From positions 2,977 through 66,976 of the forward strand of contig JBLWYG010000002.1 in NCBI GenBank assembly GCA_048267045.1: DNA of 64,000 bases, in the 5' to 3' direction. The stretch is from Roseovarius sp. Its GTDB lineage: Bacteria; Pseudomonadota; Alphaproteobacteria; Rhodobacterales; Rhodobacteraceae. Both the position numbers and the translations under genes were made by a program. Below the pieces are notes generated by a model. It worked only from the letters and a program-made list of their open reading frames with translations. It was not told the DNA's origin and ran no database searches. Numbering within the stretch: the stretch's first letter is position 1; each line of letters starts with the position of its first letter. This document shows, piece after piece, positions 34,334 to 37,839 of this stretch.

Positions 34334-34360
34334 CGGGGCGGCCACGATGGGGCCGCCCCG
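34334..34360. terminator. Terminator between convergent proV and DJ-1 genes
   Basis: Perfect 10-bp stem CGGGGCGGCC/GGCCGCCCCG; TTT follows on the minus strand. Confidence 0.72.
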
Positions 34361-34372
34361 GTCTGCATTTTT

Positions 34373-35047
34373 TCAGAGCAGCGCCAGCAATTTCTTCGCC
34401 GCTTCTTCGGACGAGGCCGGGTTCTGGCCTGTCACCAGCTTGCCGTCGGTCACAACAAAGGATGCCCAATCGTCGCCTTTCCTGTACGCGCCGCCATTTG
34501 CCTTCAGCATGTCCTCGACAAGGAACGGCACAATCTCCGTCAGCCCCACGCCCTCTTCCTCGGTGTTGGTAAAGCCGGTCACGGTCTTGCCTGCCACCAA
34601 GGGCTTGCCATTTGGCCCCTTGGTGTGACGGAACACAGCGGGCGCATGGCAAACGGCGCCGACAGGCCGATCGCTGGCGGCGAAGGTTTCGATCAGTTTT
34701 TTGCTGTCGCTATCCTCCGCGAGATCCCAGAGCGGGCCGTGGCCGCCGGGATAGAATATCGCGTCAAAACCATCGGCGGAAATGGTGGACAGAACTTCGG
34801 TATTCGCCAGATCCTTCTGCGCCGCGTCGTCGCCTTTGAAGCGCTTGGTGGCAGCGGTCTGGGCATCGTCCGTATCGCTTGACGGATCAAGCGGCGGCTG
34901 GCCGCCCTTGGGCGACGCCAGCGTGATGTCCGCCCCGGCATCCTTGAAGACGTAATAGGGCGCCGCGAACTCTTCGAGCCAGAATCCGGTCTTGTTGCCG
35001 GTATCGCCCAATTGGTCGTGTGACGTCAGTACCATGAGTATTTTCAT
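34373..35047 (-). CDS. DJ-1/PfpI family, Hsp31-like (glyoxalase III-type)
   Basis: TGFWLEEFAAPY, PGGHGPLWD, AVCHAP, VTGQNPAS. Confidence 0.92.
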   Translation of the reverse strand: MKILMVLTSHDQLGDTGNKTGFWLEEFAAPYYVFKDAGADITLASPKGGQPPLDPSSDTDDAQTAATKRFKGDDAAQKDLANTEVLSTISADGFDAIFYPGGHGPLWDLAEDSDSKKLIETFAASDRPVGAVCHAPAVFRHTKGPNGKPLVAGKTVTGFTNTEEEGVGLTEIVPFLVEDMLKANGGAYRKGDDWASFVVTDGKLVTGQNPASSEEAAKKLLALL

Positions 35048-35282
35048 TGGTCGGTTGCCTTTTCATAAATTCAATCAATCGCTCGGGTCGGTGCAACGCG
35101 CGCCGATAGCCGCGTCTCGGCGTGCCAACAAACGCGGCGGGCACCCGTTCCAGATGTATCGGTCACGTCCCCGCGATAGCCGCTTGTCCTTGGCTAGGTA
35201 GGCTGGCGATGGGCAATGTCAAAACGGCCAGGAATGGTGCGGTGGCGCTACGGCATGGATCCGGTCGATTGCGGTCTGAGCT

Positions 35283-35636
35283 TTATTTTACGCGGGCCCG
35301 CTCAAGCTGATTTATCGCAGCGGAGGTGGAAAACGGGTTTACGTAAAGACGATCATGGCTTTCGACGCCCACGTCAAAGACACAATCCTCGTTTGGGCGC
35401 GCAACACACAGCAGCACATAGCCTTCCGCTGCTTGTCGTTTGTTCAGCGCAGTGCCTTTGGGCTGACGCACAGACCCCGAAATCATCTTGGCCGCGCAGG
35501 TGATGCACCCGCCATATCGGCAGGCAATGGGCAGAACGTAGCCTGCCGCCTCGACCACGTCGATGATCGCCTCGTCCTCGCCCACGTCGAACGACAGGCC
35601 GCCGCGGTTGCGGAACGTGACCTTGTGCTTGCGCAT
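35283..35636 (-). CDS. Plant-type [2Fe-2S] ferredoxin
   Basis: LPIACRYGGCITC...LLCVA (C-x4-C-x2-C...C). Confidence 0.92.
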   Translation of the reverse strand: MRKHKVTFRNRGGLSFDVGEDEAIIDVVEAAGYVLPIACRYGGCITCAAKMISGSVRQPKGTALNKRQAAEGYVLLCVARPNEDCVFDVGVESHDRLYVNPFSTSAAINQLERARVK

Positions 35637-35698
35637 GTGTCCCTCCGTGCAAATCCCCCGGCCAGATCACACAAGGCCGGGGATCGTGGCGTACGGTG

Positions 35699-37063
35699 TC
35701 AGATCCAGATGTCGGATGAACAATCGCCACCGGGATACCGGGTTTCGTGGGCGCGGGACGGCCCATTCGGTTCGCCGTTGAAATCCACGAGGAAATCCTC
35801 GCGGATCGTCATGCCGCCATTCACGTTGTCGCAATCGACCAGCAGCATGAGGCCGCCATTGTCCTTCATCGACGGATAGAACTGGTTGTCCCAGGTCGAG
35901 AACAGCGACGTCGTGACATACATGCGCTTGCCGTCCAGCGACAGCTGGATCATCTGCGGCCCCCCATCAACCGTCCGGCCATTGACTTCGGGCGCCTTGC
36001 CCAGCAAACCGCCGATCCAGACCTGGCCGGTCAGCTTCGGGTTCGCCGGATCAGAGATGTCATACTGGCGCAGATCGCCATGCAGCCAGTTCGAGAAATA
36101 GAGATACCGGTCATCCATCGAAATCAGGATGTCCGTTATCAGGCTGGGCATCGGCACGGGAAAGCCCTCGACATCCACCGTGGGCACGTCGATGACCTTG
36201 TTGATCTCAACTTTGCCATTGTCCTTGTGATAATGAAAAATGTTCGAGGCCAGCGCCGCCCCGACAAACCCGTGAGTGCTGTCCGGATCATGATGAAACC
36301 GCGCCTCCAGCGGGATCATGCCGTCTGCCCCCAGATCGACCGATTGCTCGACCTTGCGGTTCTTGAAATCCCAGAAATGGATATGCTGGCCGTATTTGCC
36401 GCGCGCCACATCCTCCAGATCAAATCCCGGCATGAAGGTGTTGGGCGACGCCCATTCGGTCGAGATCATCATATTGTGCCGTGGCTGATACCAGAAGTCA
36501 TAGTTGTACTTCATCTCGCCAAGGTCTTTTTCCCAGCGGCCAAGAATGTTGAAATCCTTGTCCAGATGCAGGAAACCGCCCGGCCCGTTACCGTCCGCAT
36601 CGCCCAGCATCGACACGATTATATCCGCGCCAAGGCAATGCACCGTATGCGGGGCGGACAGATTGGTCTTGGCCTTGATCTCGTCCCCGTTGATCGTCTT
36701 GTAAAGCGTCGGTTTGCGCGGATCGGATGCGGTGTCGACGATGTAGAAATTCGTCGTGCGCACTCCGGGAATGATCAGGTATTTGCGCTCCATGCTGCCA
36801 TCCGTGTTGCAGGACGAACAGGCATTCCAGCCCATATGGTGCAATTCGTCACCGACGATGGGCATCTCGGTGCGGTGGATTACCTGGCTGTAGGTCGGAC
36901 TGTCCTCGTCAACATCGATGGTTGCCAGATAGTCCGGTTTTTCAACGCCGGTCCCGGTATAGATGCAGATCGTGTAAACGACTTTTTCGCGCGGCGCCTT
37001 GATGGCCTCTTGCGGCGACGCATAGCCGGGTCCTGCACAGCAGCTACCGTTTGAGTCAGACAT
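35699..37063 (-). CDS. Selenium-binding protein SBP56/SELENBP1 family (methanethiol oxidase-like), cytoplasmic
   Basis: GPGYASP, DYLATID, DELHHMGWNACSSC, YDFWYQPRH, NWLHGDLRQYDISDP, GGPQMIQLSLDGKR, WDNQFYP, YPGGDCSSDIWI; no signal peptide. Confidence 0.93.
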   Translation of the reverse strand: MSDSNGSCCAGPGYASPQEAIKAPREKVVYTICIYTGTGVEKPDYLATIDVDEDSPTYSQVIHRTEMPIVGDELHHMGWNACSSCNTDGSMERKYLIIPGVRTTNFYIVDTASDPRKPTLYKTINGDEIKAKTNLSAPHTVHCLGADIIVSMLGDADGNGPGGFLHLDKDFNILGRWEKDLGEMKYNYDFWYQPRHNMMISTEWASPNTFMPGFDLEDVARGKYGQHIHFWDFKNRKVEQSVDLGADGMIPLEARFHHDPDSTHGFVGAALASNIFHYHKDNGKVEINKVIDVPTVDVEGFPVPMPSLITDILISMDDRYLYFSNWLHGDLRQYDISDPANPKLTGQVWIGGLLGKAPEVNGRTVDGGPQMIQLSLDGKRMYVTTSLFSTWDNQFYPSMKDNGGLMLLVDCDNVNGGMTIREDFLVDFNGEPNGPSRAHETRYPGGDCSSDIWI

Positions 37064-37314
37064 GTCATTCCTCCCTTTTATCATATCGTTTCCGGCGTGG
37101 CCCCGAGCTTGGGCAAATCTGTTTGCCGACGATCCGTAACACCACACGCTGCCGCTGCAGCGCTGTCTTGCCGGACGCAACAGCATCATATGACGATATG
37201 GCGCAGGCGCGCGCCAAGGAAATCCCTTGGACGCAAACAGGATCCGGTTTCTACTTCGTACGCTGGCGGCGAGACCCCTGGCGTCGCAAGTTTGATCAAG
37301 GCAGGAGATACAGG

Positions 37315-37839
37315 ATGAACACTCTTCGCGCACTCATCGCCACATCTGCTATTCTTTGTGGAACAGTCACCACCGCACAAACGGCCACCAATACGATGAC
37401 CGTCAAAATTGACGGATCACAGACCGTTTTATCGATGTCACCAACCTTCGCCCGTGCGCCATCCAGTTGGAGCACCTTTCCTGCGGCGGACCATGTCGAC
37501 GAAATCCAGGCAATTGGATACCTGTTGGAGGACGATGCCCTCGAGATGCAGGTCAACGTCTATTTTGTGATATGGAACCTGAGCGAAGGCGCGAATATCG
37601 AACAGCCCAGCATCGAAATCGTCCGGCGCGATGACACGGGTCGCTGGGAGACCATGGAACAGGAAGACCCGCCAATCGTGACGTTGACCACCTACGACCG
37701 CTCTGACGCCGGATTGCTCATCGAGGCTGCATTTTCAGGAAATTCCGTCTACTGGCCGACCATTTACAAAAAGCCCGAGGACCGCGGGCCGTCAGCGCAG
37801 GTCAGTGGCGAGTTTTCGATCTTCTATCCTGTGGACTAA
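37315..37839 (+). CDS. Secreted hypothetical protein, 174 aa
   Basis: CAGGAG RBS; signal peptide MNTLRALIATSAILCG; alternating beta-strand pattern. Confidence 0.72.
   Translation: MNTLRALIATSAILCGTVTTAQTATNTMTVKIDGSQTVLSMSPTFARAPSSWSTFPAADHVDEIQAIGYLLEDDALEMQVNVYFVIWNLSEGANIEQPSIEIVRRDDTGRWETMEQEDPPIVTLTTYDRSDAGLLIEAAFSGNSVYWPTIYKKPEDRGPSAQVSGEFSIFYPVD

What the first reader, a model, noticed from the sequence alone, without database searches (positions are those of the whole stretch)
34373..37063. Cytoplasmic human-type SELENBP1 paired with a [2Fe-2S] ferredoxin and no MauG
Seen: a 454-aa SBP56 protein with no signal peptide, 62 bp upstream of a plant-type ferredoxin, then an Hsp31-like DJ-1 on the same strand. 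Its motifs (GPGY.SP, ELHH.GWN.CSSC, YDFWYQPRH, NWLHGDLRQYDISDP, C-terminal YPGGDCSSDIWI) track the animal/plant protein as I recall it. Known: SELENBP1 is a Cu-dependent methanethiol oxidase producing H2S, H2O2 and formaldehyde, whereas characterised bacterial MtoX is periplasmic and encoded with MauG/SCO1-type maturation genes. Inference: a second, MauG-independent thiol-oxidase system in a lineage known for DMSP/methanethiol metabolism. The ferredoxin may mature the cofactor or accept electrons, and DJ-1 may clear aldehydes, which would make this a simple model for the eukaryotic enzyme.
Basis: partly seen in the sequence, partly recalled or inferred. Interest (0 to 1): 0.72.

Follow-up and report, generated by a model that had tools for sequence, protein, structure and literature searches.

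The report
Methanethiol oxidase with private ferredoxin
This marine bacterium carries a known, human-SELENBP1-like copper enzyme that destroys the sulfur gas methanethiol; its gene is almost always followed, from bacteria to salt-loving archaea, by a gene for its own small iron-sulfur protein, a partner that none of the papers I searched mentions and that published enzyme assays left out.

Summary
On the minus strand lie a leaderless 454-aa SBP56 gene (35699-37063), a plant-type [2Fe-2S] ferredoxin gene 62 nt downstream (35283-35636), and an Hsp31-like DJ-1 gene 235 nt further on (34373-35047).

The SBP56 is not new. It is collinear, residue for residue, with RdMTO of Roseobacter denitrificans. 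RdMTO is a cytoplasmic, copper-dependent, MauG-independent methanethiol oxidase characterised in 2024-2026. The window protein is 53% identical to mouse SELENBP1. It falls in the bacterial clade sister to eukaryotic SELENBP1 and far from periplasmic MtoX.

The ferredoxin link is real:
- It is present in 69 of 76 related species loci with enough downstream DNA, and in 5 of 7 haloarchaeal plasmids examined.
- In 401 Pseudomonadota genomes this ferredoxin subfamily occurs only in the four genomes that hold clade-A SBP56, each time adjacent to it.
- The two proteins co-diverge (r = 0.75).
- No searched paper mentions the pairing.

DJ-1 is incidental (0 of 80 loci).

Best reading: a two-component thiol oxidase whose ferredoxin is a dedicated redox partner, most likely an electron donor. 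The direction of electron flow is inferred, not shown.

The parts
35699..37063 (-). SELENBP1-type (RdMTO-type, clade A1) cytoplasmic copper methanethiol oxidase, 454 aa
   Evidence: Pfam SBP56 scores 726 bits over the full length. Residues C8, C9, H75, H76, C82, C85, H139, H142, C143, D189, E253 and C448 sit at exactly the published RdMTO positions (PMC13603461). It is 53% identical to mouse SELENBP1. There is no signal peptide.
37070..37075 (-). Ribosome-binding site GGGAGG, 6 nt before the SBP56 ATG
   Evidence: Read directly from the sequence. It supports the 454-aa start over the upstream GTG of the 544-aa open frame.
35655..35682 (-). Intercistronic GC-rich hairpin (CCCCGGCC-N11-GGCCGGGGG) between the SBP56 and ferredoxin genes
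   Evidence: In this window alone the fold is no better than shuffles (z = -0.09). However, most of the 19 subclade-A1 intergenic regions folded hold a strong hairpin at the same place with a different sequence, often followed by a run of T. It is a candidate partial terminator or mRNA-stabilising element. This is inferred.
35283..35636 (-). SBP56-associated [2Fe-2S] ferredoxin, 117 aa, with its own GGAGGG ribosome-binding site (35641-35646)
   Evidence: Pfam Fer2. Cysteines 39, 44, 47 and 77. An invariant family-specific C-terminal motif GVESHxxLYxNPF (alignment A1). Adjacent to SBP56 in 69 of 76 informative loci. A match of 100 bits or more occurs only in genomes with clade-A SBP56.
34373..35047 (-). 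Hsp31-like DJ-1/PfpI protein, 224 aa. It is an adjacent gene and not a conserved part of the system.
   Evidence: Pfam DJ-1_PfpI. Solved relatives are 1u9c, yeast Hsp31 (YDR533c) and glyoxalase III. It is absent from all 80 related loci.
34334..34360 (-). Strong intrinsic-terminator-like hairpin (10 G-C pairs followed by a run of T) after the DJ-1 gene
   Evidence: It is the only strong terminator-like site on this strand downstream of the SBP56 gene.

Best explanation
The locus encodes a two-gene system and an unrelated neighbour.

1. The enzyme. It is a cytoplasmic, copper-dependent methanethiol (alkyl-thiol) oxidase of the SELENBP1/RdMTO type. It converts CH3SH and O2 to formaldehyde plus H2S or sulfane sulfur.
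2. The ferredoxin. It is a dedicated plant-type [2Fe-2S] ferredoxin, co-transcribed behind an intercistronic hairpin, and it serves as the enzyme's private one-electron carrier.

Shown here: the identity of the enzyme, and the near-obligate, co-evolving pairing with this ferredoxin subfamily across bacteria and haloarchaea.

Inferred: the direction of electron flow. My best guess is that the ferredoxin donates electrons to the copper site. It could do so in either of two ways:
- It keeps or restores the copper as Cu(I).
- It supplies the two extra electrons that let O2 go to water instead of H2O2: CH3SH + O2 + 2e- + 2H+ -> HCHO + H2S + H2O. From my own knowledge, the copper-dependent formylglycine-generating enzyme does this for a cysteine thiol with an external reductant.

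The H2O2-forming 'oxidase' reaction of the lone recombinant protein would then be an uncoupled mode.

The DJ-1/Hsp31-like gene is a chance neighbour.
For: Enzyme identity:
- Pfam SBP56 scores 726 bits over the full length.
- All published RdMTO and SELENBP1 catalytic and copper residues sit at identical positions (PMC13603461, PMC10936201).
- The protein is 53% identical to mouse SELENBP1, with an identical C-terminal 13-mer.
- In the tree, clade A (SH-aLRT 99) is sister to eukaryotic SELENBP1 (SH-aLRT 90). MtoX lies on a very long separate branch.

Methanethiol context elsewhere:
- Related loci carry SQR-like, persulfide-dioxygenase-like, glutathione-dependent formaldehyde dehydrogenase and IclR regulator genes.
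- Some carry a PpoB2-type copper chaperone.
- On a Phaeobacter inhibens plasmid the pair sits next to rhodanese, MBL-fold hydrolase, enoyl-CoA hydratase, acyl-CoA synthetase and GcvT-like genes. My reading of these, not tested here, is that they resemble the DMSP-demethylation genes dmdD, dmdB and dmdA.

Dedicated partner:
- A same-strand ferredoxin lies within 700 nt downstream in 69 of 76 informative species-level loci from several phyla.
- Of the 7 exceptions, 5 genomes carry the ferredoxin orthologue elsewhere, mostly beside a second SBP56 paralogue. The other 2 are small MAGs.
- In 401 Pseudomonadota genomes, matches of 100 bits or more occur only in the 4 genomes with clade-A SBP56, always adjacent. 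The next best match scores 56 bits.
- 5 of 7 haloarchaeal plasmids examined have the pair 0-5 nt apart or overlapping.
- Pairwise identities of the two proteins correlate: r = 0.75, Mantel 0 of 2000 permutations.
- The ferredoxins share an invariant C-terminal motif that is not in the plant and cyanobacterial ferredoxin it aligns with.

Donor rather than acceptor:
- By my knowledge of the named taxa, the carriers look aerobic.
- Recombinant RdMTO alone had only 0.17 Cu per protein, and the two groups that assayed it disagree on whether it makes H2O2 (PMC13603461, PMC10936201).
Against: - RdMTO and human SELENBP1 turn over methanethiol without any ferredoxin, so the partner is not strictly required for catalysis (PMC13603461).
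- Eukaryotes and SBP56 clade B lack the partner.
- No conserved ferredoxin reductase is encoded nearby.
- No natural SBP56-ferredoxin fusion was found.
- No RNA data exist for this organism, so co-transcription is inferred only.
- I could not check whether the characterised RdMTO gene itself has the ferredoxin downstream.
- The direction of electron flow rests on analogy only.
Confidence: 0.65

Rival explanations
1. The ferredoxin is the electron acceptor. The enzyme works in vivo as a methanethiol dehydrogenase and passes the two substrate electrons to the [2Fe-2S] protein instead of O2, so no H2O2 is made.
For: The pairing evidence is the same. This would also explain why Cao et al. saw no H2O2 (PMC10936201). 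No dedicated ferredoxin reductase gene lies in the neighbourhood, which suits a carrier that unloads onto general acceptors.
Against: From my own knowledge, plant-type ferredoxins usually have very low potentials, which makes reduction by a thiol-to-aldehyde couple unfavourable. By my knowledge of the named taxa, the carriers look aerobic. The isolated enzyme needs O2 and makes H2O2 (PMC13603461).
Confidence: 0.15
2. The ferredoxin is a maturation factor. It would be the cytoplasmic counterpart of the SCO1/MauG genes of MtoX, needed to load or reduce copper or to form a protein-derived cofactor, and it would not take part in turnover.
For: Each SBP56 clade has its own conserved accessory gene. 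MtoX has SCO1 and MauG. Clade B has a 221-aa membrane protein. Clade A has the ferredoxin. Copper occupancy of recombinant RdMTO is only 0.17 (PMC13603461). Trp231 and Trp391 are conserved in all clades including MtoX; the tryptophans that Eyice et al. proposed as TTQ precursors are likewise conserved in all three domains (PMC5739008), though I could not tell whether they are these two. Some loci add a PpoB2-type copper chaperone right after the ferredoxin.
Against: A four-cysteine plant-type ferredoxin is a plain electron carrier and has no known oxidative maturation chemistry. Enzyme made in E. coli without it is active once copper is supplied (PMC13603461).
Confidence: 0.12
3. The adjacency is a passenger effect. 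The ferredoxin serves another enzyme, for example the reductase-less Rieske oxygenase 4.6 kb away, or general metabolism.
For: The ferredoxin shows weak NCBIfam similarity to the Fer2 domains of oxygenase reductases.
Against: The subfamily co-occurs strictly with clade-A SBP56 (4 of 4 genomes against 0 of 397). The pairing persists across phyla and two domains while the surrounding genes change completely. The two proteins co-diverge.
Confidence: 0.04

Closest known systems
RdMTO of Roseobacter denitrificans OCh114 (UniProt Q166Z5), a 'cluster 1' Rhodobacteraceae methanethiol oxidase (Cao et al. 2024, PMC10936201; Schlemminger et al. 2026, PMC13603461)
   Same: A leaderless protein in which C8/9, H75/76, C82, C85, H139/142, C143, D189, E253 and C448 sit at the published RdMTO positions. 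The GWNACS, HTVHC and GGDCS motifs are shared. No MauG or SCO1 gene is involved. By orthology, a copper-dependent methanethiol oxidase.
   Different: The published work treats the enzyme as a single protein. Neither paper contains the word ferredoxin. Here, and in about 90% of clade-A loci, a dedicated ferredoxin gene follows. I could not inspect the RdMTO locus itself.
Human/animal SELENBP1 (methanethiol oxidase)
   Same: 53% identity over the full length to mouse SELENBP1, and an identical C-terminal 13 residues. The same copper-ligand residues. Cytoplasmic. Clade A is the sister group of the eukaryotic proteins in the tree.
   Different: Eukaryotic genes are not arranged in operons and no ferredoxin partner is described for them. 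The animal proteins carry an insertion of about 18 residues near residue 357 of the window protein.
MtoX of Hyphomicrobium sp. VS and Ruegeria pomeroyi (Eyice et al. 2018, PMC5739008)
   Same: The same Pfam family. H75, H76, H139, D189, E253, W231 and W391 are conserved. The substrate is methanethiol.
   Different: Only 27-30% identity. The window protein scores 156 bits against the MtoX model, whose cut-off is 650. MtoX has a signal peptide and conserved SCO1 and MauG neighbours. It lacks C82, C143 and C448. It has no adjacent ferredoxin (0 of 4 loci).
Plant- and cyanobacterial-type [2Fe-2S] ferredoxins (for example PDB 3p63, 1rfk)
   Same: The Fer2 fold family and the CX4CX2CX29C ligand pattern. 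E-values around 1e-19 against solved ferredoxins.
   Different: The score is below the TIGR02008 cut-off (67.9 against 81.15). The protein is about 20 residues longer. It has an invariant GVESHxxLYxNPF C-terminal motif. It is found only beside clade-A or haloarchaeal SBP56 genes.
Copper-dependent formylglycine-generating enzyme (mechanistic analogy only, from my own knowledge)
   Same: Cu(I)- and O2-dependent conversion of an R-CH2-SH thiol to an aldehyde plus H2S, using an auxiliary reductant.
   Different: An unrelated fold. It acts on a protein-bound cysteine. No ferredoxin partner is known for it.

Membership tests
SBP56 (Pfam PF05694) | Full-length match above the gathering score | tested here: met
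   726 bits against a cut-off of 34, positions 1-453 of 453. PDB 2ECE scores 415 bits.
SELENBP1/RdMTO-type ('cluster 1') methanethiol oxidase | [quoted passage not shown] | tested here: met
   C82 in GWNACS, C143 in HTVHC and C448 in GGDCS (motifs defined in PMC10936201).
SELENBP1/RdMTO-type ('cluster 1') methanethiol oxidase | Proposed copper-site residues (His75/76, His139/142, Asp189, Glu253 in RdMTO numbering) | tested here: met
   All are present at identical positions (PMC13603461).
SELENBP1/RdMTO-type ('cluster 1') methanethiol oxidase | Groups with eukaryotic SELENBP1 rather than with MtoX | tested here: met
   In a 93-row maximum-likelihood tree, clade A (SH-aLRT 99) joins the eukaryotes (SH-aLRT 90). 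The MtoX outgroup branch is longer than 2. The join has moderate support only and came from a quick search.
SELENBP1/RdMTO-type ('cluster 1') methanethiol oxidase | Copper-dependent oxidation of methanethiol | not testable with these tools
   Shown for the relatives RdMTO and SELENBP1 (PMC13603461), not for this protein.
MtoX (NCBIfam NF052453, periplasmic methanethiol oxidase) | Score at or above the equivalog cut-off | tested here: not met
   156 bits against a cut-off of 650.
MtoX (NCBIfam NF052453, periplasmic methanethiol oxidase) | Signal peptide, and SCO1/SenC plus MauG genes alongside | tested here: not met
   There is no N-terminal hydrophobic segment. No such neighbours are present. 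The CCP_MauG family is absent from the whole genome. True MtoX-type loci in other genomes do show SCO1 and MauG.
Plant-type [2Fe-2S] ferredoxin (PF00111 / TIGR02008) | Fer2 domain with CX4CX2CX29C ligands | tested here: met
   Fer2 scores 52 bits against a cut-off of 21. Cysteines 39, 44, 47 and 77.
Plant-type [2Fe-2S] ferredoxin (PF00111 / TIGR02008) | TIGR02008 subfamily cut-off | tested here: not met
   67.9 bits against 81.15. It is a distinct, SBP56-linked subfamily with an extra conserved C-terminal motif.
Hsp31-like DJ-1/PfpI | DJ-1_PfpI domain, and relatives among Hsp31 and glyoxalase III proteins | tested here: met
   Pfam scores 57.7 bits. PDB 1u9c scores 181 bits, glyoxalase III 4lru 107 bits and yeast Hsp31 102 bits. 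It is well below the HchA equivalog cut-off (52.7 against 365).
   0 of 80 loci have a DJ-1 homologue within 5 kb.

The most novel reading that the evidence does not exclude
Prokaryotic SELENBP1-type methanethiol oxidases are physiologically two-component enzymes. A private [2Fe-2S] ferredoxin feeds electrons to the copper site, so that O2 is reduced to water and the thiol is cleaved without releasing H2O2. The widely assayed single-protein 'oxidase' reaction, including that of human SELENBP1, would then be an uncoupled side mode. The low copper occupancy, and the dispute over whether the products are H2S plus H2O2 or sulfane sulfur, could stem from leaving the partner out.
Probability: 0.3. 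Interest if true: 0.75.

Novelty: new variant of a known kind. Interest (0 to 1): 0.55.

Why it matters
Methanethiol oxidation is a central step in marine DMSP and sulfur cycling. SELENBP1 is the human enzyme whose loss causes extra-oral halitosis, and it is studied in cancer. The bacterial orthologue RdMTO is now used as a simple model for it, yet two groups disagree on its products and report poor copper loading (PMC10936201, PMC13603461). A ferredoxin gene that is almost always attached to the enzyme gene, from roseobacters to haloarchaea, is a concrete missing component to add to those assays. It could settle the mechanism and the true stoichiometry. For annotation, the pair is a better marker of this pathway than the SBP56 hit alone. 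The window itself adds one point: the core unit is two genes, because the CoA-binding gene seen in the other subclade is absent here. It also shows that the DJ-1 neighbour carries no signal.

Tried and rejected
- DJ-1 as part of the system: rejected, 0 of 80 loci.
- The intergenic hairpin as significant from this window alone: the fold is no better than shuffles. It is retained only because most of the 19 subclade-A1 intergenic regions folded hold a hairpin of different sequence at the same place.
- Transcript evidence: no RNA run holds the region. Only one metagenome DNA run does.
- Rosetta-stone fusions: seven long SBP56 representatives have no Fer2 domain. One has EF-hands and CCCH zinc fingers and is probably eukaryotic.
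- Recent horizontal transfer from base composition: the SBP56 and ferredoxin genes have G+C of 0.57-0.59 against 0.62 for the window, which is too weak to use.
- A CoA-binding partner elsewhere in the genome: the only good CoA_binding_2 gene is 40% identical to the operon type, whose members are 64-87% identical to the L052 copy used as query, so it is probably a generic paralogue.
- A PpoB2 copper chaperone in this genome: none found, but the control genomes also gave no match, so this is weak.
- Locating the RdMTO locus itself, to see whether it has the ferredoxin: not achieved. It was not among the 80 loci or the named cluster members.
- Literature: searches combining SBP56 or selenium-binding protein, methanethiol, and ferredoxin or 2Fe-2S found no paper linking the two. 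The SBP evolution paper contains none of the words neighbor, operon, synteny or iron-sulfur.
- Structure prediction was not run. Only single chains can be modelled, and that would not test the complex.
Full report
**What is there.** Three genes lie on the minus strand.
- A 454-aa open frame at 35699-37063, preceded by GGGAGG 6 nt before the ATG.
- After 62 nt, a 117-aa frame at 35283-35636 with its own GGAGGG.
- After 235 nt, a 224-aa frame at 34373-35047, followed by a strong terminator-like hairpin at 34334-34360.

Pfam assigns them to SBP56 (726 bits, positions 1-453 of 453), Fer2 and DJ-1_PfpI. The first 40 residues of the SBP56 protein have no hydrophobic leader. The 90-residue extension possible from an upstream GTG has none either.

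**Which SBP56 it is.**
- The NCBIfam equivalog model for periplasmic MtoX scores 156 bits against a cut-off of 650.
- The genome (2.95 Mb, 97% complete) holds only this one SBP56 gene and no member of the MauG/CCP family.
- The protein is 53% identical over its full length to mouse SELENBP1, and the last 13 residues are identical. That sequence was 98% identical to a database primate entry. Only database sequences were used afterwards.
- I built a 93-row maximum-likelihood tree rooted on MtoX-type proteins. The window protein falls in a well-supported bacterial clade, called clade A here (SH-aLRT 99). Clade A joins the eukaryotic SELENBP1 proteins with moderate support (SH-aLRT 90).
- A second bacterial clade, clade B, is 41-43% identical to the window protein. 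Clade B and the haloarchaeal proteins branch separately.
- So 'human-type' is a fair description.

**It is already known.**
- Cao et al. (2024, PMC10936201) sorted Rhodobacteraceae SBP56 proteins into two clusters. Cluster 2 is MtoX-like. [quoted passage not shown]
- They purified two cluster-1 enzymes from E. coli with no helper genes, RdMTO of Roseobacter denitrificans and RlMTO, and showed that both degrade methanethiol.
- Schlemminger et al. (2026, PMC13603461) showed that RdMTO is about 53% identical to human SELENBP1. They showed it is strictly copper-dependent and makes H2S, H2O2 and formaldehyde.
- The window protein carries C8/9, H75/76, C82, C85, H139/142, C143, D189, E253 and C448 at exactly the RdMTO positions.
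- From the residue numbering I infer that RdMTO belongs to clade A and RlMTO to clade B. I did not test this.

**The ferredoxin link.** This part is not in the literature I could search.
- Eighty species-level loci with 69-96% identical SBP56 were fetched. The nearest are a Roseovarius sp. (96%) and an Oceaniovalibus sp. (94%).
- A same-strand homologue of the window ferredoxin lies within 700 nt downstream in 69 of the 76 loci with enough DNA. The DJ-1 gene is in none.
- By their record titles, the carriers are Alpha-, Beta- and Gammaproteobacteria, Actinomycetota, an Acidobacteriota MAG, a Candidatus Promineifilaceae MAG (Chloroflexota, by my knowledge) and a Flavobacteriaceae-labelled MAG.
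- Of the seven exceptions, five genomes hold the ferredoxin orthologue elsewhere (seven copies in all). Four of those copies sit beside a second clade-A SBP56 paralogue. The other two genomes are MAGs of 0.9 and 2.0 Mb.
- The reverse test is as clean. In 401 Pseudomonadota genomes, a match of 100 bits or more to this ferredoxin occurs in four genomes only. They are exactly the four that hold clade-A SBP56, and each match is adjacent to it. The next best match scores 56 bits and is a Fer2 domain within a much longer open frame.
- Clade B loci have no adjacent ferredoxin (0 of 17), and neither do MtoX-type loci (0 of 4).
- The pair also occurs on plasmids of Paracoccus seriniphilus and Phaeobacter inhibens. 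In five of seven haloarchaeal plasmids examined, the two genes are 0-5 nt apart or overlap.
- Pairwise identities of the enzyme and the ferredoxin correlate across 78 pairs (r = 0.75; no permutation out of 2000 reached this).
- The ferredoxins share the canonical CX4CX2CX29C ligands plus an invariant C-terminal GVESHxxLYxNPF motif. The motif is not in the plant and cyanobacterial ferredoxin the protein aligns with.
- Searches combining SBP56 or selenium-binding protein, methanethiol, and ferredoxin or 2Fe-2S found no paper that connects them. The four key SBP56 papers do not contain the word ferredoxin.

**Other neighbours.**
- Each SBP56 clade has its own accessory gene. MtoX has SCO1 and MauG. 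Clade B has a 221-aa membrane protein with no Pfam family. Clade A has the ferredoxin.
- Within clade A, the subclade 68-71% identical to the window protein (A2) usually adds a 149-aa CoA-binding protein, placed either before or after the ferredoxin (31 of the 80 loci).
- The window's own subclade (A1, 72-96% identical) and the haloarchaeal loci examined do not.
- The only good CoA_binding_2 gene elsewhere in this genome is 40% identical to the operon type.
- The conserved core is therefore two genes.
- Recurrent but non-universal neighbours fit methanethiol chemistry: IclR regulators, SQR-like and persulfide-dioxygenase-like genes, and glutathione-dependent formaldehyde dehydrogenase.
- A PpoB2-type membrane copper chaperone sits directly after the ferredoxin in 12 loci.
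- In Phaeobacter, a rhodanese, MBL hydrolase, enoyl-CoA hydratase, acyl-CoA synthetase and GcvT-like run follows the pair. It looks to me like DMSP-demethylation genes; I did not test this.
- In subclade A1, the 45-75-nt spacer between the two genes usually holds a strong hairpin of lineage-specific sequence, often with a run of T after it. In this window it is at 35655-35682. On its own it is not better than shuffles.

**How it probably works.**
- Shown: the enzyme's identity, and a near-obligate, co-evolving partnership with one ferredoxin subfamily.
- Inferred: the ferredoxin is the enzyme's private one-electron carrier.
- I favour electron donation to the copper site, for two possible ends. 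One is to keep the copper reduced. The other is to supply two electrons so that O2 ends as water: CH3SH + O2 + 2e- + 2H+ -> HCHO + H2S + H2O.
- From my own knowledge, the copper-dependent formylglycine-generating enzyme performs the same thiol-to-aldehyde-plus-H2S chemistry with an external reductant.
- This reading fits carriers that, by my knowledge of the named taxa, look aerobic. It also fits the cost of making H2O2 in the cytoplasm, the 0.17 Cu per protein of recombinant RdMTO, and the unresolved disagreement over H2O2 and the sulfur product (PMC10936201, PMC13603461).
- Against it: the lone enzyme does turn over, eukaryotes and clade B do without the partner, and no dedicated ferredoxin reductase is encoded nearby.
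- The rivals are an electron acceptor (dehydrogenase mode), a maturation factor that replaces SCO1/MauG, and a passenger gene serving the nearby Rieske oxygenase. The co-occurrence data leave the last one very unlikely.

**Verdict.**
- The enzyme is a new member of a known, characterised kind.
- The DJ-1 link is a chance adjacency.
- The ferredoxin pairing is real, ancient or widely transferred, and apparently undescribed. The locus is therefore a two-component variant of a known enzyme.
- Earlier agents of this scan reached the same conclusion on other genomes. Those are unchecked AI notes. I re-derived the pairing independently here. I add that the CoA-binding gene is not part of the universal core.

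Noticed in passing
L085-L102 (for example L090:818-1483, minus strand): SBP56 clade B is 41-43% identical to the window protein and is the commonest SBP56 type in the sampled genomes of the window's own family. In 18 of 18 loci it is followed by a conserved membrane protein of about 221 aa that has no Pfam family. It may be that clade's own accessory factor.
   Followed up: partly
L111:6773-7576 (Paracoccus seriniphilus plasmid) and 11 other loci: A DUF2182 gene, now Pfam PpoB2 'copper chaperone', overlaps the end of the ferredoxin gene in 12 of 79 loci. This suggests dedicated copper delivery to the enzyme. None was found in the window's genome, but the control genomes gave no match either.
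   Followed up: partly
L047-L081, L082-L084, L112: A 149-aa CoA_binding_2 protein accompanies the pair only in the SBP56 subclade 68-71% identical to the window protein. It occurs in two gene orders: SBP56-ferredoxin-CoA and SBP56-CoA-ferredoxin. It is absent from the window's subclade and from the haloarchaeal loci examined.
   Followed up: yes
L112 (Phaeobacter inhibens P30 plasmid pP30_b, 4164-11350): An IclR gene lies upstream on the opposite strand. On one strand follow SBP56, ferredoxin, CoA-binding, rhodanese, MBL hydrolase, enoyl-CoA hydratase, acyl-CoA synthetase and a GcvT-like gene. It looks like a plasmid-borne DMSP-demethylation and methanethiol-disposal cluster.
   Followed up: no
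window 35655-35682 and the matching spacers of L002-L034: A position-conserved but sequence-variable GC-rich hairpin lies between the SBP56 and ferredoxin genes in subclade A1, often with a run of T after it. It may be a partial terminator that sets the enzyme-to-ferredoxin ratio.
   Followed up: partly
L128:3059-3787 and L129:2987-3766 (Natrinema salinisoli, Haloterrigena turkmenica plasmids): In two haloarchaeal loci, a 242-260-aa hypothetical protein with no Pfam match stands where the ferredoxin gene is in five other haloarchaea.
   Followed up: no
L113:5453-5746 (Rubrobacter radiotolerans plasmid): A clade-A-like SBP56 (65% identical) is followed by a 97-aa protein with a weak ABM (antibiotic biosynthesis monooxygenase) match instead of a ferredoxin.
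   Followed up: no
window 37315-37839 (+): A 174-aa protein with a signal-peptide-like N-terminus lies upstream of the SBP56 gene on the opposite strand. It matches no Pfam or NCBIfam family and has no homologue in the 80 related loci.
   Followed up: partly
G401, G402, G405, G407 (loci L134, L136, L138, L139): Several genomes carry two clade-A SBP56 paralogues of which only one has the ferredoxin beside it. One ferredoxin may serve both enzymes.
   Followed up: partly
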